A stretch of DNA of 64,000 nucleotides. Source: a virus. A model generated the notes under the pieces. It ran no database searches. It saw nothing but the letters and a program-made list of their open reading frames with translations, and was not told the origin of the DNA. This document shows positions 8,966-50,605 of the stretch, in pieces (position 1 is the first letter of the stretch; each line of letters opens with the position of its first letter). The stretch spans positions 96,875-160,874 of IMG/VR virus record IMGVR_UViG_3300017605_000342; one strand, 5' to 3'. Both the position numbers and the translations under genes were made by a program.

Positions 8966-9479
8966 GAGCTTTCTCCCGTTTTAATTCATGTTCCTTAGCA
9001 TGTCTTAGTCTGTGACAATTAGCACACAGAACTACCACACCAAGAGCCACTTCTTCTAGTATTTTCTCCCAAGTCGTAAGTAACAGCGTATTAAAATAGT
9101 TTTGTTTCTTACTTGGGTTAGTGTGATGAAAGTCAAATACTTCCGTATAGTCACAAATAAAACCACAATCGTAACATCTTCCACCTAAGTGGGCTATCAA
9201 CTTTCTTTTGACTTGTATTCTTCGGGCTTGCTGTGTAAGATTGTAAAGATTACTGCAAACTTGACAGTATTTAGTGCCGAGTTTTATAGGGTTTTTGCTG
9301 CAACGAATACACAGTCCGCCGACTAGATTTTTGACTCTGTATAAACTAATTCTACTGGCCGGATTTGAGCACTTTTCGCAGTACTTACAATACCAAGTAC
9401 GTTTTCTTCGCGGATTGGGATCAATCTTACTGTAATTTGTTTTACAAATCCCACAGAGTTGCGGTTCAAGACTAGCCAT
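8946..9479 (-). CDS. HNH endonuclease
   Basis: GGRCYDCG...FDFHH...LCANCHRLRH, plus N-terminal CxxC pairs. Confidence 0.85.
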   Translation of the reverse strand: MASLEPQLCGICKTNYSKIDPNPRRKRTWYCKYCEKCSNPASRISLYRVKNLVGGLCIRCSKNPIKLGTKYCQVCSNLYNLTQQARRIQVKRKLIAHLGGRCYDCGFICDYTEVFDFHHTNPSKKQNYFNTLLLTTWEKILEEVALGVVVLCANCHRLRHAKEHELKREKARGCSGG

Positions 9480-22555: not shown

Positions 22556-22743
22556 TATTCCTCTTTAACACACTGAACTCTGTTGTTGTGGGTGTGGTTA
22601 TTACCTTTTCGTTCCTCTTTAGTTTCAGGTTGCCCACATTTGCAGCAATGATACCATCCACGTCCGTTGTAGAATTCTCCGAAAGTGTCGTCGTTTACTT
22701 CTTTGTAATCGCAAAAACAATGTTTATTCATAGTCCTTACCAT
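22555..22743 (-). CDS. Small Cys-rich protein
   Basis: HCFC and CCKCG; coupled to its neighbours. Confidence 0.35.
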   Translation of the reverse strand: MVRTMNKHCFCDYKEVNDDTFGEFYNGRGWYHCCKCGQPETKEERKGNNHTHNNRVQCVKEE

Positions 22744-23555
22744 TCATACCCAGCTACACAGACATCGATTGAAATACCAGCATCCGTAGTAATGTGTAAT
22801 TCTCGGTCTGCTGTTGTACAAAAGATCGGTGAGGCTGGCGTAAAAACTAAACCAGGTTTAGATGTAGTACTTGGAGCCGATGAAAATGCAAGCACGGCTT
22901 GGTCAGTACCCGCTGAGTAGGTGGTATCCGCATTATCACCGAACCACAAAATAATACGGGCGGCAGTCGTCGCGTAAGTACCGACCACAATCGACGTAAT
23001 GGCAATTTTCTTACCAGAGGTTGGGGACCATACGTCAGTACCAGTCTGAGTAGAAGTGGCGTTAAATGTCTTATGGATAAATAGCGCGGGATCAATATGC
23101 GCAGTAAGTTGTCTTCCCCAAAGGTCGCTCACACCATTTGCACGATCTGAGTTTGCAACAGCAGTTGGTAAAGCGTTGATCGCCTTGAAACCAACCTTGA
23201 CTGGGTTACCAGAATCGGCAGAATCATGCGGCGTGCCTCCACCAACTGCCAATGCATCCACAGCAGAAGAACCCGTCTCATCAACCACGGAAGTTTGTAG
23301 AGTACCATCACCGATTCTTACAGCAACTGGAGTCCCTGATGGGGCATCGACTGTGATCGAGTTACCACCGTCGTTCATACGAGTTACATCAACGTCTAAA
23401 CCGTTGGTCGCATCTCCACCTATTTTTCCGGTTGCATCTGCCGTTCCATCTACCAACTTTACATATTGATAATGAACACCGGAAACGTCGTCAGTTGCAA
23501 CTACTGGGGTTGCTGTGCCTGTACCAGATGCTGGAATTGTTACGTTATCTGCCAT
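22737..23555 (-). CDS. Putative virion structural protein
   Basis: MADNVTI...VATDDVSGVHYQYVKL start; Gly/Thr/Ala-rich. Confidence 0.5.
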   Translation of the reverse strand: MADNVTIPASGTGTATPVVATDDVSGVHYQYVKLVDGTADATGKIGGDATNGLDVDVTRMNDGGNSITVDAPSGTPVAVRIGDGTLQTSVVDETGSSAVDALAVGGGTPHDSADSGNPVKVGFKAINALPTAVANSDRANGVSDLWGRQLTAHIDPALFIHKTFNATSTQTGTDVWSPTSGKKIAITSIVVGTYATTAARIILWFGDNADTTYSAGTDQAVLAFSSAPSTTSKPGLVFTPASPIFCTTADRELHITTDAGISIDVCVAGYEW

Positions 23556-36744: not shown

Positions 36745-38994
36745 ATGGACTATCTAAAAACAAACATCACGTTTATCGATCATATAGACAAGTTGCCCGC
36801 ATTAGCTGACTTCTTTCGACGCAAGAAAGAGATCTGCTGGGACTTGGAAACCAACGTTACCGACGAAGTTTGGGATCGCAGAATACGTACAATGTCTTTC
36901 GGAGACATGGAAGAACAGTACGTAGTTGACATGCTGGCCTTCACGCCGGATTTGGTTAACACCCAAGGGTTTTTCATAGGCAACCCCTGCTACAAACCGC
37001 TGCTAGACATTATTACCCCAGTCTTGGATTCTCCAGACTGGATTAAGATTGGTTACAACTTGGAATTTGAGTACGTTACTACACGCTGGTGTTTAGGTAT
37101 CTGGCCTTGGAAGTTCTTTTGTAGTTTCCAAGCTGAGAAGGTTTTACTGTGTGGTAGATGGTCGTTTAAGATCAAAGGGTTTTGGGGTTTGGATGACGTT
37201 TTGAAAAGATACTTCGGTATCGAGTTGGACAAAAACCTCCAGAAAAGCTTTGACCTAATCACCCCACTTACCCCAGAGCAAATCACATACGCTGCTCTCG
37301 ACGTTAGCCTACCTAAGTTACTAAAAGACACTCAAGTAGAAAAATTACAAAGCTTCAAGTTAATACCTACTGTAGAAATTGAAAACAACACAGTACCAGC
37401 ATTTGGTGAGCAGTACCTAAACGGTATCAAGCTGGATACTATCGAATGGCAGAAGCGTATTGAAGAGTTAAAAATCAAAAAAGCCGAGCTACTAAAGGCT
37501 TTGGATGAAGCCTTCATTCCTGTGTGTGGTATAAAAGCTATGCCAGATATAAACCTAAACCGCATGGAACAAGAATGGCGTGACACCATACCAGACAAGG
37601 TTTACCGCAAAACGCTGAACAAAGAGCAGAAGGCTGCTTACGACGACGAAATCCGTAAAGCGCGGGCGGCTAAGAAGGCGATATACAGCGAAAATTCAAA
37701 GCGTGTCACTGAAATGCGCACTCGTATCGCAGACTGTGAGGGAGAGGCTCTGATCAACTATAACTCTCCAAGCCAACTACTGGCAGTATTGCCCAAGTTG
37801 GGAGTTCCCGTAGAGGAATTGCCAGACACTAACGAGCGCACCCTGATAAAACTGTCAAGTAAATATGCCGCAGTCAAAGTACTGAGAGATTTCCGTGGAG
37901 TTAAAAAGCTTGAAGGCACTTACGGACAGCCGTTCTTGGATCATATCAGTCCGGTTACAGGTAGGATACATTCTCACTTACATCAGATTGGTGCTGAAAC
38001 TGGACGTGCCAGTTCTACCAGACCGAACATTTTCAATCTCCCACAGGGAGAAGAGTGGCGGCGTGGGTTTATTGCCGAACCAGGCAACAAGATCATAACC
38101 ACCGACTTTTCAGGCCAAGAGTTACGTATCCTGACCGAAGTCTCCCAAGAACCTGTGTGGGTCAAGGCTTTCCGGTTAGGCTGGGACGTACACTCGGTCG
38201 TTGCTGAAATGATATTCGGTGATGATTGGCGTAACGGTTTTGTTAAAGACGGTAAGTTTAATGGAACTGAAGTCTTTTATAGTAAAGGTCATCCAAGAGA
38301 AGGACAACCTATAGACGATTGTGGTTACTATTTTAATGAAAAGAAAAAGTGTGACTGCCCTAGACACAAAAAATTACGTAACAACGTTAAGTCTATTAAC
38401 TTCGGTATTGCTTATGGAATGACCGAAAACAAGCTCTCAGAAGAATTGGGCATTACGCGTGGTGAAGCCCGCATGCTTCTGGAGAACTACTACCAGGCCG
38501 TAAGAGTCTTGAAGAATTATCTTGACAAATCGGGAAATTTTGCTAAGCTAAACTTCAAAGCTTTCACCGTGGGTGGTCGAGTACGTTATTTCAAGAAACC
38601 CACGAGAGAGTACATTATCAAGTTGCTGGTAGAAGACGGTATAGAGAAGCCCACTTGGGAAGAGATTTCCCGCAAACAGTGGTCGTTAAATGCTTCGATA
38701 GAACGTGAAGGTAAAAACACGGTCATACAAGGTACAGGCGCTGATATGCTCAAGCTTGCAATAGGTGCGGGTTTTGACGAAAAAGGCCGACCGTATCTGT
38801 GGCATATTTTGAGACAAGCTGGCGCTAAGTTGGTAAACAATGTCTACGACGAAGTTGTTGTTGAATGTAACGAGAAACAAGTCAGCGACCTTGGCCCGAT
38901 CATTTCAGAGAGAATGTGCGCGGCTGCCGGCACGTTTGTTAAATCGATACCGTTCGATACAGAGCAGCATGTAGAAAATCATTGGCAGAAATAG
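36745..38994 (+). CDS. polA: DNA polymerase family A with 3'-5' exonuclease
   Basis: Exo WDLET and YAALDV; TGRASS..PN; motif A DFSGQELR; motif B KSINFGIAYG; motif C VYDE. Confidence 0.95.
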   Translation: MDYLKTNITFIDHIDKLPALADFFRRKKEICWDLETNVTDEVWDRRIRTMSFGDMEEQYVVDMLAFTPDLVNTQGFFIGNPCYKPLLDIITPVLDSPDWIKIGYNLEFEYVTTRWCLGIWPWKFFCSFQAEKVLLCGRWSFKIKGFWGLDDVLKRYFGIELDKNLQKSFDLITPLTPEQITYAALDVSLPKLLKDTQVEKLQSFKLIPTVEIENNTVPAFGEQYLNGIKLDTIEWQKRIEELKIKKAELLKALDEAFIPVCGIKAMPDINLNRMEQEWRDTIPDKVYRKTLNKEQKAAYDDEIRKARAAKKAIYSENSKRVTEMRTRIADCEGEALINYNSPSQLLAVLPKLGVPVEELPDTNERTLIKLSSKYAAVKVLRDFRGVKKLEGTYGQPFLDHISPVTGRIHSHLHQIGAETGRASSTRPNIFNLPQGEEWRRGFIAEPGNKIITTDFSGQELRILTEVSQEPVWVKAFRLGWDVHSVVAEMIFGDDWRNGFVKDGKFNGTEVFYSKGHPREGQPIDDCGYYFNEKKKCDCPRHKKLRNNVKSINFGIAYGMTENKLSEELGITRGEARMLLENYYQAVRVLKNYLDKSGNFAKLNFKAFTVGGRVRYFKKPTREYIIKLLVEDGIEKPTWEEISRKQWSLNASIEREGKNTVIQGTGADMLKLAIGAGFDEKGRPYLWHILRQAGAKLVNNVYDEVVVECNEKQVSDLGPIISERMCAAAGTFVKSIPFDTEQHVENHWQK

Positions 38995-40969: not shown

Positions 40970-41716
40970 ATGCAAGACTCTCTCGGTGACAGAATGAAGA
41001 ATGACTACGAAAACAGGACTCGGTACTCCCTGCCCCGTAGAACCTACACACTGGCGCGTATAGACGGTAAGGCGTTTCATACTTTTACTAAAAACTGCAC
41101 CGCACCGTTCGATGTACGCCTCATGAATTCCATGAACTATGCAACTAGGGCCGTATGCGAAGGAACTCAAGGCTGTCAGTTTGCGTATGTTCAATCTGAT
41201 GAAGCGTCGTTCTTACTAACCGATTTCGATAACGTAAACACAGCAGCATACTTTGACGGTAATTTGCAAAAGATTTGTTCCATTATGGCGTCGATGTTTA
41301 CTGCAAAGTTTAACTATAGCTACTCTAATCTGCATAGCAAAGACATGTCATGTGCAATGTTCGATTGCCGGGTGTTCTCAATCCCAGATCCTATCGAGGT
41401 AGAAAACTACTTTTACTGGAGATGGTCCGATTGGCGACGTAATTTCTCTCAGACTGTTGGCAGAACTCACTTCTCGCACAACGAACTTGAGGGACTAAAC
41501 CGTCAGCAGATACAAGACAAACTGTACAACGAAAAACAAGTTGATTTGGCAGTATTTCCAGAAGAACAGAAACATGGCAGGTTGTGTGTTAAAAAGAATG
41601 TAGTTATAGGACTACCAGCCACAATAGTTAGTTCTTTTTGGGAAGTAATTCCATGTATGAATTTTAAAGAAAACAGAGACGTATTGCAAAGCTTAGTACC
41701 TAGACCTGGATATTGA
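40970..41716 (+). CDS. Thg1-like tRNA(His) guanylyltransferase / 3'-5' polymerase
   Basis: RMKNDYE, RIDGKAFHTFT, YVQSDE and FDCRV motifs. Confidence 0.9.
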   Translation: MQDSLGDRMKNDYENRTRYSLPRRTYTLARIDGKAFHTFTKNCTAPFDVRLMNSMNYATRAVCEGTQGCQFAYVQSDEASFLLTDFDNVNTAAYFDGNLQKICSIMASMFTAKFNYSYSNLHSKDMSCAMFDCRVFSIPDPIEVENYFYWRWSDWRRNFSQTVGRTHFSHNELEGLNRQQIQDKLYNEKQVDLAVFPEEQKHGRLCVKKNVVIGLPATIVSSFWEVIPCMNFKENRDVLQSLVPRPGY

Positions 41717-43116: not shown

Positions 43117-43630
43117 AAATGGTATGTGGTAGTGATTCCTTTTACATGCACTACGTAATGACGGCCACAGCGATGCGTCGGGAATCGGAAAAGCAAGAAC
43201 TTGCTCTGAAGGCAAGAGTAGATATCTTGACTGACGCTATGATGTTGTTGATCTACGCAGGGAAAGAGACTATAACTGGCAAAGACAGAGTTGATACCAT
43301 GTTTTTAGAGTATTTCGAGCGATTAACGGAACTAGTCAATGAGTCGCGGCCTTGAACTAACGTTCTTTTTGATGATGTTGGCGGGGTTGATCGGGTTTAT
43401 GTGGCACGAAGCTCGTAAAGACCGTACCTGTAGTATAACAGAAATGTATAGGTCTATGGGCCATGACAGCACTGAACGTGAGGGAGTGTGGCTGGACCTA
43501 GACGGAAAGCAAGAACATTGCCGGTATATTTTTTTCGAACACGGACCAGGTAGAATAGTTGGCAGCGTTGATCGGTGTCCTGAAGGACACTTGGTTATTT
43601 CAATCTCAATTCCGAAAGGACACTATCCCA

Positions 43631-44380
43631 GTGAGTAAATTACACGAACTTCTAGCAGTCGATTCAAGCTTGAAAGGTCAGGCGGAAAAAACCCGCACTG
43701 AATTAAAAAACACGTTTGAGAAAAAGCGTCATTTGTTTGAAGAGAAGAAAGTAACATTCAAGTCTTTTGACGAAGGTAAGACTCCTATTACTGAGGAACA
43801 GAAAGACATCCAGTCTACTGTTAATCAAGAACTAAAATGGATTTCTGACTTCCTGTCAAACGCAATCAACGTCAGTTTGCAGATTTCTGAGGCAAACACT
43901 GTGGCAAAGGCTTCTATCGTGCTGGATAACGGCACAGAGATTGCCAAAGACGTGCCGGCAACCCACTTGCTGGAGCTAGAAAAGAAGCTAAAAGACATTC
44001 AGGATTTGGTTTTTGCTGTCCCCACACTCGATCCTGCCAAGGGTTTTGTGGAAGATCCGGGCCGTGGCAAAAACATCTTCAAGGCGCGTGACGTTTCTAA
44101 GACACGTACCAAAAAGAAGAATGAAGTTTTAATCCTGTATCCACACACAGAACAGCATCCAGCACAGACGAAGGAAATTGTGGTGGACGTACCTGTGGGA
44201 GAAATTTTGGAACAAGAGTGGTCAGGGCTTATCACCCCGGCTGCAAAAGCTGACATGTTGTCGCGGGTTGAAGACCTAACAAGAGCCGTAAAGAAGGCAA
44301 GATCGCGTGCTAACGAAGTCGAAGTTAAATCCAAGCCTTCTCTCGGACAGACGTTGGTAAATCACATTTTCGGGTTCTAG
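43631..44380 (+). CDS. Conserved helical protein of unknown function (resembles DUF7873-type proteins from memory; unverified)
   Basis: Probable GTG start (MSKLHELLAV); VPATHLLELEK, PTLDPA, TEQHPAQ and VKKARSRAN motifs; followed directly by a structured RNA. Confidence 0.7.
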   Translation: MSKLHELLAVDSSLKGQAEKTRTELKNTFEKKRHLFEEKKVTFKSFDEGKTPITEEQKDIQSTVNQELKWISDFLSNAINVSLQISEANTVAKASIVLDNGTEIAKDVPATHLLELEKKLKDIQDLVFAVPTLDPAKGFVEDPGRGKNIFKARDVSKTRTKKKNEVLILYPHTEQHPAQTKEIVVDVPVGEILEQEWSGLITPAAKADMLSRVEDLTRAVKKARSRANEVEVKSKPSLGQTLVNHIFGF

Positions 44381-44655
44381 TAGGCTCACAGTTAAGGTTC
44401 AAGCTAATGGCGTTGTGGCAACAACGCGCTCAAGCTGAGGCTTTCACTAGATGAGGCTTACGTTGCGGTCCTGAGGGTGCAAGTTGATTCAGATTCGCTA
44501 ACCTTCTACGTTGGTTCAAATCCAACCTGGGCGGCCAAACAAATTGCATGTAGTTTATGCCTATCGCCCGGTAGTTTAGTGGTAAAACAGAAGACATAAA
44601 GTTGAGATCTGGGTCGTAACTATTCTCTCTAAATGGATTGCGTTCATTCGACCTA
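44381..44655 (+). ncRNA. Large structured RNA with embedded circularly permuted tRNA-like domain
   Basis: T-arm GTTGG-TTCAAAT-CCAAC, then CTGGGCG-G-CCA, a linker, CGCCCGG-TA and a D-arm GTTT-AGTGGTA-AAAC. Closed by CTTCT/AGAAG and the outer helix GTTGCGGTCC/GGGTCGTAAC. Boundaries approximate. Confidence 0.7.
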
Positions 44656-45225: not shown

Positions 45226-45376
45226 TCTGACATAGTGCTTGCACGTCATACTTCTTATAGGAACCGCTGCCCTTACGGGTGCTGTGGGTTCGACCCCCAC
45301 CTTGGTGCTTCGGCATCTTGTGGCGAAACTGGCAAACGCGGCGGTAAAAGGCAGACTGCTAATAATTCTTGTCAGA
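45226..45376 (+). ncRNA. Y RNA-like 1 (YrlA-type; permuted class II/Leu-like tRNA domain)
   Basis: TCTGACA-TAGTG..ATACTTC / TTCT-TGTCAGA; variable arm GCCC-TTAC-GGGT, T-loop TTCGACC, UUCG-capped acceptor, D-arm GCGAAACTGGCAAACGC. Confidence 0.8.
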
Positions 45377-45391
45377 TATAAATTTAAGATA

Positions 45392-45454
45392 ACCGTGGTG
45401 TCTGGGTACAGTTACTTCAATTGGTGAAAAACGCTGTATTCAAGTGTTCCCGGT
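45392..45454 (+). ncRNA. Y RNA-like 2 (minimal)
   Basis: ACCG-TGGTG-TC-TGGGTACAG-TTACTTC...CTGTATTCA..TTCC-CGGT. Confidence 0.7.
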
Positions 45455-45484
45455 ATTAAGTTGAGGCGGCTACGGCTGCCTTAT

Positions 45485-45580
45485 GAAAACATCATAGTGA
45501 AGGATACGGTTACTTCTTTCTAACCAAAAGTCGGCTCTACGGGCCGAAACGTTCCGTGCCGCTCGTTCTTGATGCTTTTC
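45485..45580 (+). ncRNA. Y RNA-like 3 (hairpin insert)
   Basis: CATCA-TAGTG-AA-GGATACGG-TTACTTC...CCGTGCC..TTCT-TGATG; insert TCGGCTC-TACG-GGCCGA. Confidence 0.7.
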
Positions 45581-45584
45581 CAAT

Positions 45585-45669
45585 AACGGTCATAGTGCCG
45601 AAACAGTTACTTCTTTAACCGTGCTTTCGAGCGCCCAACAAAAGCCTGTTTCACTCATTCTTGGCTGTT
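45585..45669 (+). ncRNA. Y RNA-like 4 (hairpin insert)
   Basis: AACGGTCA-TAGTG-CC-GAAACAG-TTACTTC...CTGTTTC..TTCT-TGGCTGTT; insert GTGCT-TTCG-AGCGC. Confidence 0.7.
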
Positions 45670-45702
45670 TGCTAACTAATGGTCATTCCTTAGGAGAACA
45701 CA

Positions 45703-47061
45703 ATGAAGTCAAATGTTAAAAGAGTCAAAGCACCTGTATATACCCACGAAGGTGCGCGTGCGTACAATATCAGCGCATACAATGAGCTACGCAGATCTAT
45801 TCTAAGCTGCTTGCTGTGGGAAAAAGAGTTTTACGAAAGTGGCGTTGACATTGCAAAGCGTGTCGCTGATCTGGTCACGAAAGTGTCGCCGGATAAGGTT
45901 GCTGCTCTAGCTATCGAGGCGAGAGAGAAACAGCATTTGCGCCACATGCCTCTGTTCTTGGTACGACAGATGGCTAAGTTGGATACACACAAATACCTAG
46001 TTGCGGAAACTTTGCAGCGCGTGATTCAGCGTGCTGACGAACTGGCTGAGTTCTTGGCGATTTACTTTGGAGACAACAAGTCACAGCCGCTGTCTGCACA
46101 GGTGAAAAAGGGCCTTGCAAAAGCCTTTGATAAGTTCAACGAATATCAGTTTGCAAAGTATGATCGTGACGGCGACTTCAAGTTGCGTGACGTGATGTTT
46201 TTGACTCACCCTCGTCCGAAGGAAACTTCAGGGACTTACGGGAAAAAGCGTCAGCGTCTAACGTCTGAGGAAAAGCTGTTCAAGGGTATCGCAGAGCGCA
46301 CACTGGCAACCCCGGACACGTGGGAAGTGGAACTGTCTGCGGGTGCTGACAAGCGTGCGACCTTCGAGCGTTTGATTGCAGAAGAAAAGCTTGGTGGTTT
46401 GGCTTTCTTGCGCAACCTACGCAACATGGCACAAGCTGGTGTTGATCGCAAGGTAATTAAAAGATACGTAGAATCTTCAAACTTTAAGCGTGTGCTGCCT
46501 TTTAGATTTATTTCTGCTGCAAGATTCGTTCCTCAGTGGGAAGACCTGATCGAGCAGGGCATGTTGAAATGTGTTGCAGATTTTGAAAAGATGCCTGGAC
46601 GCACTGTGTTGCTTGTAGACGTTTCTGGGTCTATGAACGACAAGTTGTCGGGTAAGTCTGAAATGTTGAGACTGGATGCGGCCTACGGGTTGGCAATTCT
46701 GGTCCGAGAGTTGTGTGAAGATTCAAGTATTTATAGCTTCTCAAATAGCACGATTGCAATTCCTAATAGACGCGGGTTTGCTCTGCGGGATGCCATCGAC
46801 AAGTCGCAATCACACGGCGGCACGTTGCTAGGCGAAGCTGTGAAGCATGTAGATAAGCATGTGAAATATGATCGGCTGATCGTTATCACAGACGAGCAGT
46901 CACACGACCGTGTGCCGGCTCCTAAAGGTAAAGGTTACATGATTAACATCGCATCAAATCGAAATGGTGTCGGTTACGGTCCTTGGACACACATTGACGG
47001 ATTTTCGGAAAATGTGGTAACTTACATCTTGCAGGCTGAACAGTTTTCTGAGACACGCTAA
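45703..47061 (+). CDS. rsr: Ro60/Rsr TROVE-domain RNA-binding protein
   Basis: THEGA, LLWEKEFYESG, QRADELAEF, FNEYQFAKY, TPDTWEVELS, LRNLRN, LPFRF; vWA VDVSGSM and ITDEQ; SD AGGAG. Confidence 0.93.
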   Translation: MKSNVKRVKAPVYTHEGARAYNISAYNELRRSILSCLLWEKEFYESGVDIAKRVADLVTKVSPDKVAALAIEAREKQHLRHMPLFLVRQMAKLDTHKYLVAETLQRVIQRADELAEFLAIYFGDNKSQPLSAQVKKGLAKAFDKFNEYQFAKYDRDGDFKLRDVMFLTHPRPKETSGTYGKKRQRLTSEEKLFKGIAERTLATPDTWEVELSAGADKRATFERLIAEEKLGGLAFLRNLRNMAQAGVDRKVIKRYVESSNFKRVLPFRFISAARFVPQWEDLIEQGMLKCVADFEKMPGRTVLLVDVSGSMNDKLSGKSEMLRLDAAYGLAILVRELCEDSSIYSFSNSTIAIPNRRGFALRDAIDKSQSHGGTLLGEAVKHVDKHVKYDRLIVITDEQSHDRVPAPKGKGYMINIASNRNGVGYGPWTHIDGFSENVVTYILQAEQFSETR

Positions 47062-47068
47062 ACAAGAA

Positions 47069-47198
47069 AGCCAATGGTGCTAGGAAACAGATACTTCTCC
47101 TTTTAAGAGGGTGAACCGAGGGTCGAATCTCGGCATGTGCATCTGCACTGTAGCTTATAGCAAAGCACCAAACGTCCTGTTCCGCTCTTTCCTTGGCT
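47069..47198 (+). ncRNA. Y RNA-like 5 (degenerate permuted tRNA domain with Lys-UUU-like loop)
   Basis: AGCCAA-TGGTG..ATACTTC / TTCC-TTGGCT; CTC-CTTTTAA-GAG, CCGAG-GGTCGAAT-CTCGG, GCTT..AAGC D-like arm. Confidence 0.75.
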
Positions 47199-47239
47199 CC
47201 AAGAGTGCCGGGTAGCCACTAGGTTATCCGGCATCAAAA

Positions 47240-47375
47240 ACCTAATGGTGTTAGAGACAGATACTTCTCCTTGAATAGAGAGTGATCTGGGTTCGAATCC
47301 CAGCGGCCCCAACACTGTGGGGCTGTAGTTTAACGGAAAAACCCTAAAAATAGCTGTTTCGTCTGTTCCTTAGGT
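47240..47375 (+). ncRNA. Y RNA-like 6 (permuted tRNA domain)
   Basis: ACCTAA-TGGTG..ATACTTC / TTCC-TTAGGT; CTGGG-TTCGAAT-CCCAG, CGGCCCC/GGGGCTG closed acceptor, GTTT..AAAC D-arm. Confidence 0.8.
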
Positions 47376-47402
47376 ACACATAAAACAAACAAAGGGAAAC
47401 AA

Positions 47403-47807
47403 ATGGCAAACTCAATCAACAAAGTGACTTTGGTAGGTAGACTTGGAAAAAATCCTGACCTTTCTTTTTTGCCCTCTGGCGTAGCAGTTGCAAAGTTTCC
47501 TGTCGCAACTGACGAGCAGTGGACAGATAAAGACGGTAACAAGCAGGAACGCACAGAATGGCATAACGTAGTGGCATGGCGCAAACTGGCCGAGATTTGC
47601 GCGAAGTACCTCGTTAAAGGCAAGTTGGTCTACCTGGACGGCAAGATCCAAACTCGGTCTTACGAAGATAAAGAGGGCAATAAGCGGTACATTACAGAGA
47701 TTATCGCCGATAATATGGTGATGTTGTCTCGTACTGGTGAAGGTAGTGACGACGCTGCTAAGACGGCGGCGGCAACTGCCGGAAGCGACGGTGACGCTCC
47801 CTTCTAA
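47403..47807 (+). CDS. ssb: Single-stranded DNA-binding protein
   Basis: INKVTLVGRLGKNP, TEWHNVV, YLDGKIQTR; acidic DAPF C-terminus. Confidence 0.95.
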   Translation: MANSINKVTLVGRLGKNPDLSFLPSGVAVAKFPVATDEQWTDKDGNKQERTEWHNVVAWRKLAEICAKYLVKGKLVYLDGKIQTRSYEDKEGNKRYITEIIADNMVMLSRTGEGSDDAAKTAAATAGSDGDAPF

Positions 47808-47815
47808 CAATTTAC

Positions 47816-47890
47816 TGCGGGTGAGTGAACCGGTTGTCACGCTAGTCTCATAAGCTAGAAAGCAGGGTTCAACTCCCTGACCCGCAACCA
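47816..47890 (+). tRNA. tRNA-Met(CAT)
   Basis: TGCGGGT/ACCCGCA acceptor, CTAGT-CTCATAA-GCTAG, T-loop TTCAACT, CCA. Confidence 0.88.
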
Positions 47891-47894
47891 AAAT

Positions 47895-47961
47895 TCCGAT
47901 GGTGCAGATTACAGTTACTTCTATCTAAAGAAAAAACGACTGTGATCGTTAATTCCTCGGA
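47895..47961 (+). ncRNA. Y RNA-like 7 (minimal)
   Basis: TCCGA-TGGTG-CA-GATTACAG-TTACTTC...CTGTGATC..TTCC-TCGGA. Confidence 0.72.
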
Positions 47962-47965
47962 TACA

Positions 47966-48115
47966 TTTTTATCAATGGTGCCGTGTACGGTTACTTCTCC
48001 ATGCAGAAGGCCGTGGGTTCGAATCCCACCTTGGCGGCTTTAAACGCTGCCTTGTAGCTCAGTTGGTTAGAGCATCCGCCCAAAAAAGCCCGACACATTA
48101 ATTCCTTGATAAAAA
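47966..48115 (+). ncRNA. Y RNA-like 8 (YrlA-type permuted tRNA domain)
   Basis: TTTTTATCAA-TGGTG..TTACTTC / TTCC-TTGATAAAAA; GTGGG-TTCGAAT-CCCAC, closed acceptor, D-arm GCTC-AGTTGGTTA-GAGC. Confidence 0.85.
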
Positions 48116-48858: not shown

Positions 48859-49043
48859 AAATCTATTCATACTCCCTAGCGGAGTCCGCATCGTCGGCTT
48901 TGATTCCTTGGAGATCATGGCTAGGATATGTAACATCTCTGTCATGGACTTTGCCCAAGGTTATGGTACTATGGTAGAAAAACTGATGGTTTCAAGGTTA
49001 TCGTCACGTAAAGATCCCCTTGCCGGGAAACTTGAAGAGTAAT

Positions 49044-49418
49044 ATGTCAGGTAAAGAGTTATTATTTTCCGTCACCGCCAAAGACTGCGAGTTACAAACG
49101 TTTACTTGCGGTAAGAAAGGCGGTGGCGGGAAAGACACTAGCAACAACGGAGTCCGGTTGATACATCATCCCTCTGGGGCACGTGGAGAAGGACGGGACA
49201 CGCGTGACCAGAAGGTTAACAAGCGCAATGCATTTTTGCGCCTGATAAGAACCAAAGAATTTAAGGATTGGCATCGGGCCGAAGTTGTTAAACGGCTGTG
49301 CTATCCTGTTACAGACGTGAACAAAGCTGTGGATACAGCAATGGCTCCACAAAATTTGCGTGTTGAAGTACAAATAGAGCGAGGATGGGTCGATGAAAGT
49401 AAAAACACTGTTGAATAA
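49044..49418 (+). CDS. Peptide-chain release factor (RF-1 domain)-like protein with GGG in place of GGQ
   Basis: ELQTFTCGKKGGGGKDTSNNGVRLIHHPSG...RDQKVNKRNAF matches the RF domain-3 layout. Confidence 0.75.
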   Translation: MSGKELLFSVTAKDCELQTFTCGKKGGGGKDTSNNGVRLIHHPSGARGEGRDTRDQKVNKRNAFLRLIRTKEFKDWHRAEVVKRLCYPVTDVNKAVDTAMAPQNLRVEVQIERGWVDESKNTVE

Positions 49419-49698
49419 AGAATCTAAATGGGTAAAGAATGTCTACGAAGAACAAGGCAGATATTGTTTGCTGGGAGCGCTTCAGGAATGTTATGGAGGC
49501 AGTGCGGGGCACCCGCCACTCGGCAATGCAGGCGAAGCTTATAGAGATGCTAAGAAGAAAGTAGAGTCAGCGATCAAGGAATTTGCAACGTTACGTAGAG
49601 TTAGAGTAGCAAAAAAGCCTGATATCGTCAGATTTAACGATAACAAAAATATTACCTTTAAGGATATTCGCAAAGTAATACGAGCAGCAAATGTTTAA
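49393..49698 (+). CDS. Hypothetical protein
   Basis: W.K..Y...GRYCLLGA...FND motif common in phage small proteins. Confidence 0.5.
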   Translation: MKVKTLLNKESKWVKNVYEEQGRYCLLGALQECYGGSAGHPPLGNAGEAYRDAKKKVESAIKEFATLRRVRVAKKPDIVRFNDNKNITFKDIRKVIRAANV

Positions 49699-50128
49699 TC
49701 TAAGTTACACACAACCTGCGAGGTTACGGGGCCAGATTCATATGGAGAAACCTATAACCTCGTTAGGTACGCACACAGACATTCACGGTAATCGTTGGGA
49801 TGTCAAGATGGCTCGCTTTGTAGACGGTAAAAACTTTGTCGCTGCTGTACCTACTGATGAATTACACCCATACTATAGCGACACTTCTATGACACAATAT
49901 GACTTTGTAGAACAAGTTTGGGAACCATACGAGGTAATAGTCCATGAAAATCACAAGCAAGTTAGTAAAAGACTTTGAGTTGTCACAGGAACTTTACGGA
50001 ACTAAAGTAGCATTGGGTAACATCTTGTGGGATGTTGCGGCCAGTTTGTACAAAGACTTGGGCGTAACAAGAATACGTACTTCTTACAAGATCCACGAGT
50101 CTAAAGACAGAACACGAAAGTCACTCTA

Positions 50129-50605
50129 ATGCAACTTACAAAGGTAATCAGTGGCGGGCAGAACGGGGTAGATCAGGCCGGGTTGCACGCTGCTAGGATC
50201 GTGGGAATTCCCACTGGAGGACATGCTCCACGTGGGTTTAAGACCTTGGACGGGCCTAATCTGGCATTAAGAGATACGTTCGGACTGGAAGAAACGTTAG
50301 AATCCGGCTATCCACCTAGAACAGAGCTTAACGTGATGAACTCCGATGCTACTCTACAAATAGCCAAGGACTTCAGTTCTGCTGGAGAGGCTCTAACGAC
50401 TAGGCTGATCCTGAAGCATATGCGCCACCGCCTGCCACTGCATCCGGCGCTAAATCCAGGTGTAGACCAAGTTGTTGCATGGATCATATCAAAGCAGATT
50501 ACAGTGTTAAATGTAGCCGGCAATTCTTTGAAGACGTGGCCTGAAGCTTTCGAGTGGGCTTATCCCTTTTTAGTAGAGGTCTTTGGTAAACTACATGCTA
50601 GGTGA
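50129..50605 (+). CDS. SLOG-family (molybdenum-carrier-like) nucleotide-binding protein
   Basis: KVISGGQNGVDQAGL, YPPRTELNVMNSDATL and VLNVAG. Confidence 0.8.
   Translation: MQLTKVISGGQNGVDQAGLHAARIVGIPTGGHAPRGFKTLDGPNLALRDTFGLEETLESGYPPRTELNVMNSDATLQIAKDFSSAGEALTTRLILKHMRHRLPLHPALNPGVDQVVAWIISKQITVLNVAGNSLKTWPEAFEWAYPFLVEVFGKLHAR

What the first reader, a model, noticed from the sequence alone, without database searches (positions are those of the whole stretch)
45226..48115. Phage Ro60 surrounded by an array of eight diversified Y-RNA-like genes with a constant handle and a variable domain
Seen: eight non-identical intergenic units (45226, 45392, 45485, 45585 upstream of rsr; 47069, 47240, 47895, 47966 downstream). 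They share the architecture [stem1]-T-RGTG-nn-[stem2]-WTACTTC-[variable]-[stem2']-n4-6-TTCY-[stem1']. The stem sequences differ in every copy but still pair. One position covaries perfectly: TAGTG with TTCT in units 1, 3 and 4, and TGGTG with TTCC in units 2, 5, 6, 7 and 8. This points to selection on RNA structure rather than a DNA repeat. Known: bacterial Ro60/Rsr binds Y RNAs (YrlA class) whose second domain mimics tRNA, can tether PNPase, and is usually encoded with one or two Y RNAs; a few phages carry the pair. Inference: eight modular RNAs would let one phage Ro60 form a family of RNPs with different effector or decoy specificities. Possible roles are redirecting host RNases or absorbing tRNA-targeting defences.
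Basis: partly seen in the sequence, partly recalled or inferred. Interest (0 to 1): 0.92.

Follow-up and report, generated by a model that had tools for sequence, protein, structure and literature searches.

The report
Eight Y-RNA genes around phage Ro60
An uncultured 161-kb soil phage encodes the RNA-binding ring protein Ro60 flanked by eight small RNA genes that share one Ro60-type "handle" (four also carry a tRNA look-alike); this is a real but unusually large set of Y RNAs, and I found similar unannotated sets of 4-9 in related phages and bacteria.

Summary
Eight + strand units (45227-48111) surround a bona fide TROVE/vWA Ro60 gene (45703-47061). All share this plan: stem 1, a bulged U, RG:CY pairs, an internal loop, stem 2, then WUACUUC.

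There are two classes, not eight:
- Four units (u1, u5, u6, u8) are YrlA-type, carrying a permuted tRNA-like module (T arm, closed acceptor-like hairpin, D arm).
- Four units (u2, u3, u4, u7) are short hairpins with A-rich loops.

My covariance models find exactly these eight handle-bearing units in the 161-kb genome. Across 50 homologues, 95% of cells pair and 30 of 31 pairs show compensatory changes.

In relatives the handle reads GGCGAAG, which matches the published bacterial Y-RNA motif GNCGAAN0-1G. The units are therefore diverged YrlA/YrlB-class Y RNAs that fall below Rfam's threshold.

The array is not unique. Related loci carry 2-9 units:
- Caulobacter phage CcrColossus has 8.
- Brevundimonas phage Kikimora has 6.
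- Bacterial chromosomes have up to 8 plus 1.
In GenBank these are unannotated or called tRNAs.

Different effector or decoy specificities remain untested. The tRNA-like modules lack anticodon loops and CCA ends, which argues against anticodon-nuclease decoys. This scan has already noted similar Ro60-like proteins with RNA arrays on other DNA.

Verdict: a real Y-RNA array and a new variant of a known kind. Interest is moderate.

The parts
45227..45375 (+). u1: long, YrlA-type Y RNA. Handle is CUGACA-U-AG-UG...AUACUUC ... UUCU-UGUCAG. It carries a V region, T arm, UUCG-capped acceptor-like hairpin and an atypical D arm.
   Evidence: R2 gives 66.3 bits, E 4e-15. Fold; parse. Stem 2 is the weakest of the eight (5/8 ungapped).
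45390..45456 (+). u2: short hairpin-type Y RNA (GG:CC handle, 8/8 stem 2, A-rich loop).
   Evidence: R1 gives 50.1 bits, E 2e-11.
45489..45575 (+). u3: short-type Y RNA with an extra GC-rich mini-hairpin in the loop. Its handle, AGUGAAGG, is the closest in the window to GNCGAAG.
   Evidence: R1 gives 43.5 bits, E 1e-9, and u3 was not in the model seed.
45587..45667 (+). u4: short-type Y RNA with an extra mini-hairpin. It ends 35 nt before the Ro60 start codon.
   Evidence: R1 gives 26.0 bits, E 9e-5, and u4 was not in the seed.
45703..47061 (+). rsr: phage Ro60 (TROVE HEAT-repeat ring plus vWA domain with DVSGS MIDAS motif), 452 aa.
   Evidence: Pfam TROVE 5.8e-15, vWA_Ro60 6.5e-5. PDB 9KOP/9L5Y (phiLo Ro60) 8e-31. 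Translation.
47069..47198 (+). u5: long YrlA-type Y RNA, starting 7 nt after the Ro60 stop codon.
   Evidence: R2 gives 74.8 bits, E 2.5e-17.
47240..47375 (+). u6: long YrlA-type Y RNA with a 7-bp acceptor-like hairpin.
   Evidence: R2 gives 96.2 bits, E 7e-23. Rfam YrlA gives 26.1 bits, below the gathering score of 69.
47403..47807 (+). ssb gene interleaved in the array (context, not part of the RNP).
   Evidence: Pfam SSB 5e-38.
47816..47890 (+). tRNA-Met(CAU) gene, 3 nt upstream of u7. It is a likely processing anchor for RNase P and 3'-end trimming.
   Evidence: ARAGORN and Rfam tRNA, 49.9 bits.
47894..47962 (+). u7: short hairpin-type Y RNA (8/8 stem 2; loop 61% A).
   Evidence: R1 gives 70.7 bits, E 4e-17.
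47970..48111 (+). u8: long YrlA-type Y RNA. T arm GUGGGUUCGAAUCCCAC, D arm UAGCUCAGUUGGUUAGAGCA.
   Evidence: R2 gives 91.2 bits, E 1.4e-21. Rfam YrlA gives 31.4 bits, below the gathering score of 69.

Best explanation
What it is. The locus is a phage Ro60/Y-RNA module with an expanded RNA repertoire.

The RNAs. All eight RNAs end in the same closing structure. A 6-bp terminal helix is followed by a bulged U and two R-G:C-Y pairs. Next come an asymmetric internal loop and an 8-bp second helix, capped by the invariant WUACUUC. This structure is the diverged homologue of the Ro60-binding stem of bacterial YrlA/YrlB (GNCGAAN0-1G ... YUAY). I infer that it docks each RNA on the outer face of the Ro60 ring.

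The distal ends. The other end is either a permuted tRNA-like L-shape (u1, u5, u6, u8) or a short A-rich loop (u2, u3, u4, u7).

Biogenesis (inferred). The units sit 3-41 nt from each other and from rsr, ssb and tRNA-Met. I found no promoter-like or + strand terminator-like sites between them. They are therefore most likely cut out of one long + strand transcript by host tRNA-processing and trimming enzymes, and then stabilised by Ro60.

Function (inferred). By analogy with Deinococcus, Salmonella and phage phiLo, the RNPs would gate Ro60's cavity. They would also tether it to host RNA-decay or tRNA-handling proteins. PNPase S1/KH domains are candidates for the A-rich loops, and elbow-binding tRNA enzymes for the tRNA-like modules. 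This would fit a phage RNA-maintenance programme.

Shown versus inferred. Shown here: RNA structure conservation, linkage to Ro60, and homology to YrlA and to phiLo Ro60. Inferred: transcription, processing, binding and partners.
For: 1. The Ro60 identity is secure.

2. The units are found by two covariance models, and nowhere else in the 161-kb genome with a handle.

3. Covariation is strong.
- Short-form alignment A2: 94% of cells paired and 14 of 16 pairs compensatory, against 39-49% paired when partners are slid. Stem 2 was not used to pick the sequences.
- Long-form A3: 27 of 31 pairs compensatory by RNAalifold.
- A4, with 50 sequences: 95.1% paired and 30 of 31 pairs compensatory.

4. 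Linkage to Ro60 is consistent.
- Nearly all Ro60-selected loci with intact flanks carry units (IMG/VR, cultured phages, bacterial genomes). The exceptions are Ralstonia phage RsoM2USA and two truncated loci. The units lie on the Ro60 strand and mostly within about 1.3 kb of the gene.
- A Ro60-blind motif scan found multi-unit loci only next to Ro60.

5. The handle in relatives reads UGGCGAAG and UUAC. This matches the published GNCGAAN0-1G and YUAY of YrlA.

6. The long units have the YrlA T arm, acceptor-like hairpin and D arm order, and give sub-threshold Rfam YrlA hits.

7. The phiLo Ro60 homologue binds two adjacent Y-like RNAs and host PNPase in vitro (PMC12135203).

8. No promoter-like site and no + strand terminator-like site lies between the units. 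The only promoter-like match is inside rsr. tRNA-Met abuts u7.

9. The genome context concerns RNA maintenance: a Thg1-like enzyme, an RF-1-domain protein, 25 tRNAs and three RNA-ligase-family genes.
Against: - There is no expression, end-mapping or binding data.
- In this phage the handle's internal loop is much less conserved than in relatives. After GGUG it reads CUU, UCU, CCG and so on, instead of the A/U-AG of relatives. The 3' CGCUUGUU is degraded in u1, u2, u4 and u8.
- The window's units also score lower than relatives (66-96 versus up to 124 bits). Some copies, notably u1 and u4, could therefore be weak binders or decaying.
- None of the units reaches Rfam's YrlA gathering score.
- The genome record lacks RtcB and a CCA-adding enzyme, so the classical rsr-rtcB repair link is absent. 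The record is only 77% complete.
- The alignment made by the model (A4) leans towards the model's structure.
Confidence: 0.82

Rival explanations
1. Same molecules, different logic. The eight genes are largely redundant copies kept for dosage, or as spares against nuclease attack. On this view they are not eight functionally distinct adaptors. The two classes (tRNA-like and hairpin) are the only functional distinction.
For: - There are only two architectural classes.
- The tRNA-like modules show generic T and D arm similarity to the phage's tRNAs and no distinct identities.
- Arrays gain and lose copies quickly between close relatives. L172 has 6 and L173 has 9, with 1:1 orthologues at 88-99% identity.
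- Copy number varies from 2 to 9 across the clade.
Against: - Paralogues within the window are only 43-64% identical yet all keep the fold. Each copy has therefore been maintained for a long time rather than recently amplified.
- V arms, acceptor-like hairpins and D loops differ in length and sequence between copies.
Confidence: 0.35
2. The units are cis-acting processing or stability punctuation for the polycistronic mRNA, like tRNA punctuation. On this view they define the ends of the rsr and ssb messages and are not trans-acting Ro60 partners.
For: - The units abut ORF boundaries: 3 nt after the upstream ORF, 35 nt before rsr, 7 nt after rsr and 28 nt before ssb.
- No internal promoter-like or + strand terminator-like site lies between the units.
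Against: - In most relatives all units sit in one block upstream of Ro60 and do not flank other genes.
- The conserved single-stranded motifs and bulge match the Ro60-binding site of known Y RNAs.
- The family tracks Ro60, not operon structure.
Confidence: 0.07
3. The units are degenerate or rearranged tRNA genes (pseudogenes or tandem-tRNA junctions), or DNA-level repeats with no RNA function.
For: - The long units contain T and D arms.
- Tandem tRNA junctions elsewhere in the genome do hit model R2 weakly.
- GenBank annotators called pieces of homologous units tRNA-Gln, tRNA-Thr and tRNA-Ser.
Against: - ARAGORN calls none of the eight a tRNA.
- Four units have no tRNA-like part at all yet share the handle.
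- The T arm, hairpin, D arm order is permuted and closed.
- Compensatory changes occur in every helix across 50 homologues.
- The units show strict strand bias and linkage to Ro60.
Confidence: 0.03

Closest known systems
Bacterial YrlA / YrlB Y RNAs with Rsr (Salmonella, Mycobacterium smegmatis; Rfam RF02553; Chen et al. 2014, PMC4201824; Wang et al. 2018, bioRxiv 10.1101/312249)
   Same: - The RNAs are encoded within a few hundred bases of Ro60 on the same strand.
- A terminal 5'/3' stem carries the conserved 5'-strand motif. Relatives read GGCGAAG, which matches GNCGAAN0-1G.
- A YUAY-type motif (UUAC/AUAC) follows the second helix.
- The long form has a T arm, closed acceptor-like hairpin and D arm, and the short form is a hairpin. 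This mirrors the YrlA plus YrlB pairing.
- tRNA genes lie adjacent.
   Different: - There are eight genes here. The species characterised experimentally in that paper have about two each, and it lists 355 putative YrlAs in 276 genomes.
- In this phage the motif is GGUG/AGUG rather than GNCGAA.
- Both strands of the internal loop are conserved in the clade, whereas only the 5' strand is conserved in bacteria.
- WUACUUC is invariant even in units without a tRNA-like module.
- Rfam scores are far below the gathering score (31 and 26 bits against 69).
- The short-form loops are A-rich, not pyrimidine-rich.
- There is no rtcB neighbour.
Thermus phage phiLo Ro60 with Yrl1/Yrl2 (PMC12135203; PDB 9KOP, 9L5Y)
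   Same: - The protein is a phage-encoded Ro60 and the only PDB sequence match (E 8e-31).
- The Y-like RNAs are encoded next to the gene.
- The published in-vitro work (binding of both RNAs, ternary complex with host PNPase) is the best experimental analogue.
   Different: - phiLo has two RNAs, identified there by a CGAA motif and described with a stem-bulge-stem fold.
- Here there are eight RNAs in two classes, on both sides of the gene, interleaved with ssb and a tRNA.
Caulobacter phage CcrColossus TROVE locus (NC_019406; cited as a YrlA-bearing phage in PMC12135203)
   Same: - Its Ro60 is 50% identical.
- By my models it has eight handle-bearing units (GGUGGCG-U/A-AG ... UACUUC ... GUUCCCC) directly upstream of gp139.
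   Different: - All eight units are in one upstream block.
- The handle is close to the clade consensus.
- The GenBank record annotates only one 'tRNA-Gln' inside one unit.
- I could not see how many units the 2014 supplement listed.
Metazoan and Deinococcus Y RNAs (Y1-Y5, Yrn1/Yrn2)
   Same: - The RNAs are modular: a Ro60-binding bulged terminal helix plus an effector-binding distal module.
- Several paralogous Y RNAs serve one Ro60.
   Different: - The binding motif differs (GGUCCGA with a bulged C).
- There is no sequence homology detectable here.
- Human cells have four.

Membership tests
Ro60 / Rsr (TROVE + vWA) | TROVE HEAT-repeat domain | tested here: met
   Pfam PF05731 at 5.8e-15, 55.8 bits against a cut-off of 23. 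Phmmer to phiLo Ro60 9KOP/9L5Y gives 8e-31 over residues 11-405.
Ro60 / Rsr (TROVE + vWA) | C-terminal vWA domain with MIDAS DxSxS | tested here: met
   LLVDVSGSM is present in the translation. vWA_Ro60 scores 23.4 bits, just under its 27.7 cut-off, and VWA_2 scores 21.3.
YrlA (Rfam RF02553) | Reaches Rfam gathering score (69 bits) | tested here: not met
   The best hits are 31.4 bits (u8) and 26.1 bits (u6). There is no YrlA hit for u1 or u5 even at E up to 10. None of 14 related loci, CcrColossus included, reaches it either.
YrlA (Chen et al. 2014 criteria) | Within 4 kb of Ro60, same strand | tested here: met
   All eight units lie within 1.05 kb of rsr on the + strand.
YrlA (Chen et al. 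2014 criteria) | GNCGAAN0-1G motif near the 5' end | tested here: inconclusive
   The window units read UGGUG or UAGUG at that place, and only u3 (AGUGAAGG) is close. Homologous units in relatives read GGCGAAG or GGCGUAG at the same position of the same structure. The position is homologous but the literal motif is not met here.
YrlA (Chen et al. 2014 criteria) | tRNA-like module in the order T arm, closed acceptor-like stem-loop, D arm; YUAY before the V region | tested here: met
   Met for u1, u5, u6 and u8, from the RNAalifold consensus with compensatory changes in all three helices. AUAC or UUAC is present in all units. Not met for u2, u3, u4 and u7, which have no tRNA-like part.
YrlB / Yrn2-type short Y RNA | Long hairpin with the Ro60 motif and a small pyrimidine-rich loop | tested here: inconclusive
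   u2, u3, u4 and u7 are hairpins with the handle. Their loops are A-rich, 45% A in 16 homologues against 28% background, not pyrimidine-rich.
Y RNA (functional definition) | Bound and stabilised by Ro60 in vivo | not testable with these tools
   This needs RIP, EMSA or Northern blots in infected cells.
tRNA | Cloverleaf with anticodon arm and free acceptor end | tested here: not met
   ARAGORN calls none of the eight. The Rfam tRNA model scores 20 bits for part of u8, below its gathering score of 29. The layout is permuted, with a closed acceptor-like hairpin.

The most novel reading that the evidence does not exclude
A widespread Ro60 clade in phages, Acidobacteriota and Alphaproteobacteria does not work with one or two Y RNAs. 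It works with a heritable repertoire of 4-9 handle-tagged adaptor RNAs, in which each paralogue recruits or sequesters a different host RNA-handling protein: tRNA elbow or acceptor binders for the tRNA-like ones, and S1/KH or Hfq-type binders for the A-rich hairpins. A phage could then reprogramme several RNA-decay and tRNA-maintenance or defence pathways at once from a single protein scaffold.
Probability: 0.15. Interest if true: 0.8.

Novelty: new variant of a known kind. Interest (0 to 1): 0.55.

Why it matters
Y RNAs are usually discussed as one to four adaptors per Ro60. For phages, the literature I could search names the presence of YrlA and, in phiLo, two RNAs.

This work shows that a large Ro60 clade routinely carries 4-9 RNAs that share a handle. 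The clade includes cultured, tractable phages: CcrColossus on Caulobacter, Kikimora and Bambus on Brevundimonas, and 43-kb Xanthomonas phages. The RNAs are missed by Rfam's YrlA model and are partly mis-annotated as tRNAs.

That supplies three things:
- covariance models and coordinates for re-annotation;
- a natural series of handle variants for defining what Ro60 recognises;
- experimentally accessible systems to ask whether Y-RNA paralogues have distinct partners, which is an open question for Ro60 biology in general.

For this particular window the gain is mainly annotation. It is one more member, in the upper tail of copy number, with an unusually relaxed handle.

Tried and rejected
1. 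Rfam at its gathering score finds only tRNAs in the window and in 14 related loci. YrlA appears only below threshold. Formal RF02553 membership is therefore not claimed.

2. The short model R1 could not span the roughly 100-nt inserts of the long units, so I built a second model, R2.

3. R2 hits outside the locus looked like extra copies. They are junctions of tandem tRNA genes, the artefact Chen et al. also warn about.

4. The R2 hit at 44463-44619 shares the permuted tRNA-like core but has no handle. It belongs to the DUF7873-linked RNA that another report of this scan covers, and I did not count it.

5. A Ro60-blind scan of viral contigs with a 14-base handle pattern mostly returned chance matches. 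Only three of the 80 loci checked held multi-unit arrays, and each of those had Ro60. This is weak as an independent linkage test.

6. I searched for specific tRNA identities in the tRNA-like modules by comparing them with the phage's 25 tRNAs.
- Only generic T and D arm matches appeared.
- The 'tRNA-Lys anticodon loop' in u5 is a 9-nt match at E 0.37.
- I rejected this as evidence of identity mimicry.

7. The sigma-70 promoter and intrinsic terminator scan found no promoter-like site and no + strand terminator-like site between the units. This is uninformative about phage-specific promoters.

8. Long-range orthology of individual paralogues across phages is clear only between close relatives.

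9. The supplementary tables of Chen et al. 2014 and the 2020 Annual Review were not available. I could not check how many RNAs per phage were already listed.

Full report
**Observation**

T[AG]GTG-N7-14-[AT]TACTTC occurs nine times in 64 kb. Eight of these lie on the + strand between 45233 and 47976. The ninth, at 9119, is what chance would give.

Each of the eight folds on its own into the proposed shape:
- a terminal helix;
- a bulged U;
- two pairs formed by RG with CY;
- an internal loop;
- a second helix;
- single-stranded WUACUUC.

Parsing the units shows that stem 1 pairs at 4-6 of 6 positions and stem 2 at 5-8 of 8 without gaps. The stem sequences are different in every copy. The AG:CU (u1, u3, u4) versus GG:CC (u2, u5-u8) swap is exactly as described.

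The gene in the middle (45703-47061) is a genuine Ro60:
- Pfam TROVE scores 5.8e-15.
- A vWA domain carries the MIDAS signature DVSGS.
- The only matches among solved structures are the Ro60 of Thermus phage phiLo, 9KOP/9L5Y, at E 8e-31.

An SSB gene (47403-47807) and a tRNA-Met gene (47816-47890) are interleaved with the units.

**What the units are**

They fall into two classes.

The first class is u1, u5, u6 and u8, which are 130-149 nt long. Between the handle halves they carry a V region, a T arm (GGUUCGAAUCC type), a closed 6-7-bp hairpin and a D arm. This is the permuted tRNA-like layout that defines YrlA. Rfam's YrlA model hits u8 and u6, but only at 31 and 26 bits against a gathering score of 69.

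The second class is u2, u3, u4 and u7, which are 67-87 nt long. They are hairpins with an A-rich loop, and u3 and u4 carry a small extra stem-loop.

I fetched 35 viral contigs encoding relatives of the Ro60, at 28-57% identity. The same handle lies beside almost all of them. There it mostly reads UGGCG-A/U-AG ... UUACUUC ... CGCUUGUUCC. GGCGAAG is an instance of GNCGAAN0-1G, the motif that Chen et al. 2014 propose as the Rsr-binding site. UUAC is their YUAY. The window's UGGUG/UAGUG is therefore a diverged form of the canonical Y-RNA handle.

**Structure statistics**

- Seed alignment of 16 short units (A2). With my hand-drawn structure, 94.1% of cells pair and 14 of 16 pairs show compensatory changes. 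When partners are slid, 39-49% pair.
- Selection bias in A2. Stem 1 pairing was used to pick these sequences, so only stem 2 is an unbiased test. Stem 2 is 94.5% paired, with 7 of 8 pairs compensatory.
- Alignment of 25 long units (A3). RNAalifold recovers the handle stems, T arm, acceptor-like stem and D arm without guidance. 27 of 31 pairs are compensatory.
- Model searches in the window. R1 finds u7, u2, u3 and u4 (u3 and u4 were not in the seed). R2 finds u6, u8, u5 and u1. E-values run from 9e-5 to 7e-23.
- Model-made alignment of 50 long units from 30 sources (A4). It gives 95.1% pairing with 30 of 31 pairs compensatory, against 43-49% for slid partners. Such an alignment leans towards the model's structure.

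**Specificity**

In the whole 160,874-bp virus record (77% complete), the other R2 hits are junctions of tandem tRNA genes. One further hit, at 44463-44619, has the permuted tRNA-like core with an encoded CCA but no handle. It follows a DUF7873 gene and is the subject of another report of this scan. I treat it as a neighbour, not a ninth member.

**How common are arrays?**

I combined R1 and R2 hits, dropping partial hits and those lying over tRNA genes.

| Source | Units per locus |
|---|---|
| IMG/VR loci | 2-6, median about 3 |
| Caulobacter phage CcrColossus | 8, all with a clear handle |
| Brevundimonas phage Kikimora | 6 |
| Brevundimonas phage Bambus | 5 |
| Xanthomonas phage 10KY502B | 5 |
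| Bacteroides phage crAss001 | 3, weak |
| Microcystis phage Mvi-JY20 | 2 |
| Ralstonia phage RsoM2USA | 0 |
| Bacterial genome contigs, complete flanks (Ro60 45-60% identical; mostly Acidobacteriaceae and Alphaproteobacteria) | 1-9 |

Among the bacterial loci, one (L173) has eight units plus one with a variant handle. Its close relative L172 has five plus one, and lies next to an acyl-CoA dehydrogenase in a 5.2-Mb chromosome. Arrays are therefore not restricted to phages.

GenBank annotates none of these RNAs. In three phages it calls a piece of one unit a tRNA. The window's eight is thus in the upper tail of a clade-wide habit, not a singular event.

In the literature I could search:
- Chen et al. 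report 355 putative YrlAs in 254 bacteria and 22 phages. They characterise two or more Y RNAs in each of three species.
- The phiLo paper describes two.
- Iyer and colleagues mention the TROVE protein 'with a tRNA-like partner' in jumbo phages.
- I found no description of arrays of 5-9.
- The 2014 supplementary tables and the 2020 review were not available.

**Divergence and turnover**

The four long units of the window are only 43-64% identical to each other. That is about as far apart as they are from units in other phages. They are therefore old paralogues that each keep the fold.

Between two closely related bacterial loci, units are one-to-one orthologues at 88-99% identity while the copy number differs (6 versus 9). 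Across more distant phages, orthology is clear only for some positions. Arrays evolve by gain and loss on top of long-lived members.

**Mechanism**

Shown here:
- a Ro60 gene;
- eight RNAs with a conserved, covarying closing structure homologous to the known Ro60-binding stem;
- two kinds of distal module.

Inferred:
- Ro60 binds the handle.
- The units are excised from a long + strand transcript. This rests on three points: no promoter-like or + strand terminator-like site lies between them, spacers are only 3-41 nt, and tRNA-Met sits 3 nt upstream of u7.
- The distal modules tether or gate Ro60 with respect to host proteins, as for Yrn1-PNPase in Deinococcus and the Yrls with PNPase in phiLo.

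The setting concerns RNA maintenance:
- a Thg1-like enzyme and an RF-1-domain protein lie in the window;
- the genome has 25 tRNA genes;
- it has three RNA-ligase-family genes;
- I found no RtcB and no CCA-adding enzyme.

In the tRNA-like modules the anticodon-stem equivalent runs into the handle, and the acceptor-like stem is closed by a loop without CCA. They can imitate only the tRNA elbow and body, not the anticodon loop that most tRNA-targeting nucleases cut. Comparison with the phage's own tRNAs shows only generic T and D arm similarity.

In this phage the internal loop of the handle is noticeably less conserved than in relatives. The units also score lower with R2 (66-96 versus up to 124 bits). 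This could mean graded affinities, a co-diverged Ro60 surface, or partial decay of u1 and u4.

**Host and identity of the phage**

The nearest Ro60 homologues (55-60% identity) are in Acidobacteriaceae genomes. The nearest cultured-phage DNA polymerases are those of Tunturiibacter (Acidobacteriota) phages, at about 30-33% identity. An acidobacterial host is a reasonable guess, no more.

**Verdict**

The identification as Y-RNA-like genes under structural selection is supported. Specialised or decoy functions are untested, and the anticodon-decoy version is disfavoured. The feature is a new variant (an expanded, two-class array with a diverged handle) of a known kind.

This scan has already noted comparable arrays beside Ro60-like proteins on other DNA. 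I did not test those notes.

Noticed in passing
window 44463-44619 (+), after the DUF7873 gene 43559-44380: This is a ninth permuted tRNA-like RNA (T arm, long acceptor-like hairpin beginning CUGGGCGG-CCA, D arm). Model R2 hits it at 31 bits, but it lacks the Ro60-type handle. Its closing stem contains GGUCCUGA, which recalls the metazoan GGUCCGA motif.
   Followed up: partly
L044 (Caulobacter phage CcrColossus NC_019406) 1717-2910; L046 (Kikimora) 2066-2899; L045 (Xanthomonas phage 10KY502B) 2371-2958: Cultured phages carry 8, 6 and 5 handle-bearing Y-RNA units upstream of their TROVE genes. GenBank annotates none of them. It places a 'tRNA-Gln', 'tRNA-Ser' and 'tRNA-Thr' inside single units, which are probable mis-annotations.
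   Followed up: partly
L173:1625-1754 and L172:1977-2091: Inside otherwise uniform arrays, one unit has a different closing structure (GGUGGAGAGAUCGCGCG ... CGCGCGACUCUCGCCACC) around a tRNA-like core. It is conserved at 88% between the two bacterial loci, so it may be a second handle class.
   Followed up: no
L046:6341-6686 and L050:6777-7034 (Brevundimonas phages Kikimora and Bambus): Rfam permuted tmRNA (RF04321) matches above its gathering score (57.7 and 57.9 bits against 47). The matches lie about 2 kb downstream of the Ro60 gene.
   Followed up: no
window 40970-41716 (+), 49020-49418 (+), 50129-50605 (+): The neighbourhood contains a Thg1-like 3'-5' nucleotidyltransferase (2.6e-30), a small RF-1-domain protein (below the Pfam cut-off) and a circularly permuted YpsA SLOG protein (1.4e-27). 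It looks like an RNA and tRNA maintenance neighbourhood.
   Followed up: partly
G000:C1:20097-20549, 22625-23215, 49609-50091 (outside the window): There are three RNA_ligase (PF09414) family matches in the phage genome, one of them beside the tRNA cluster. No RtcB or CCA-adding enzyme was found in the 77%-complete record.
   Followed up: no
A2 columns 30-49 (loops of 16 short units; window u2 and u7): The loops of the short Y RNAs are A-rich (45% A against 28% in the window; u7 is 61%). The YrlB/Yrn2 type is described as having pyrimidine-rich loops.
   Followed up: partly
L166-L190; window 36745-38994: The closest Ro60 homologues (55-60%) are in Acidobacteriaceae genomes. The phage's PolA is nearest to those of Tunturiibacter phages (30-33%). 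Both hint at an acidobacterial host.
   Followed up: no
window 47199-47239: The 41-nt spacer between u5 and u6 holds a separate hairpin (GCCGG ... CCGGC) with no U tract. Its role is unknown.
   Followed up: no
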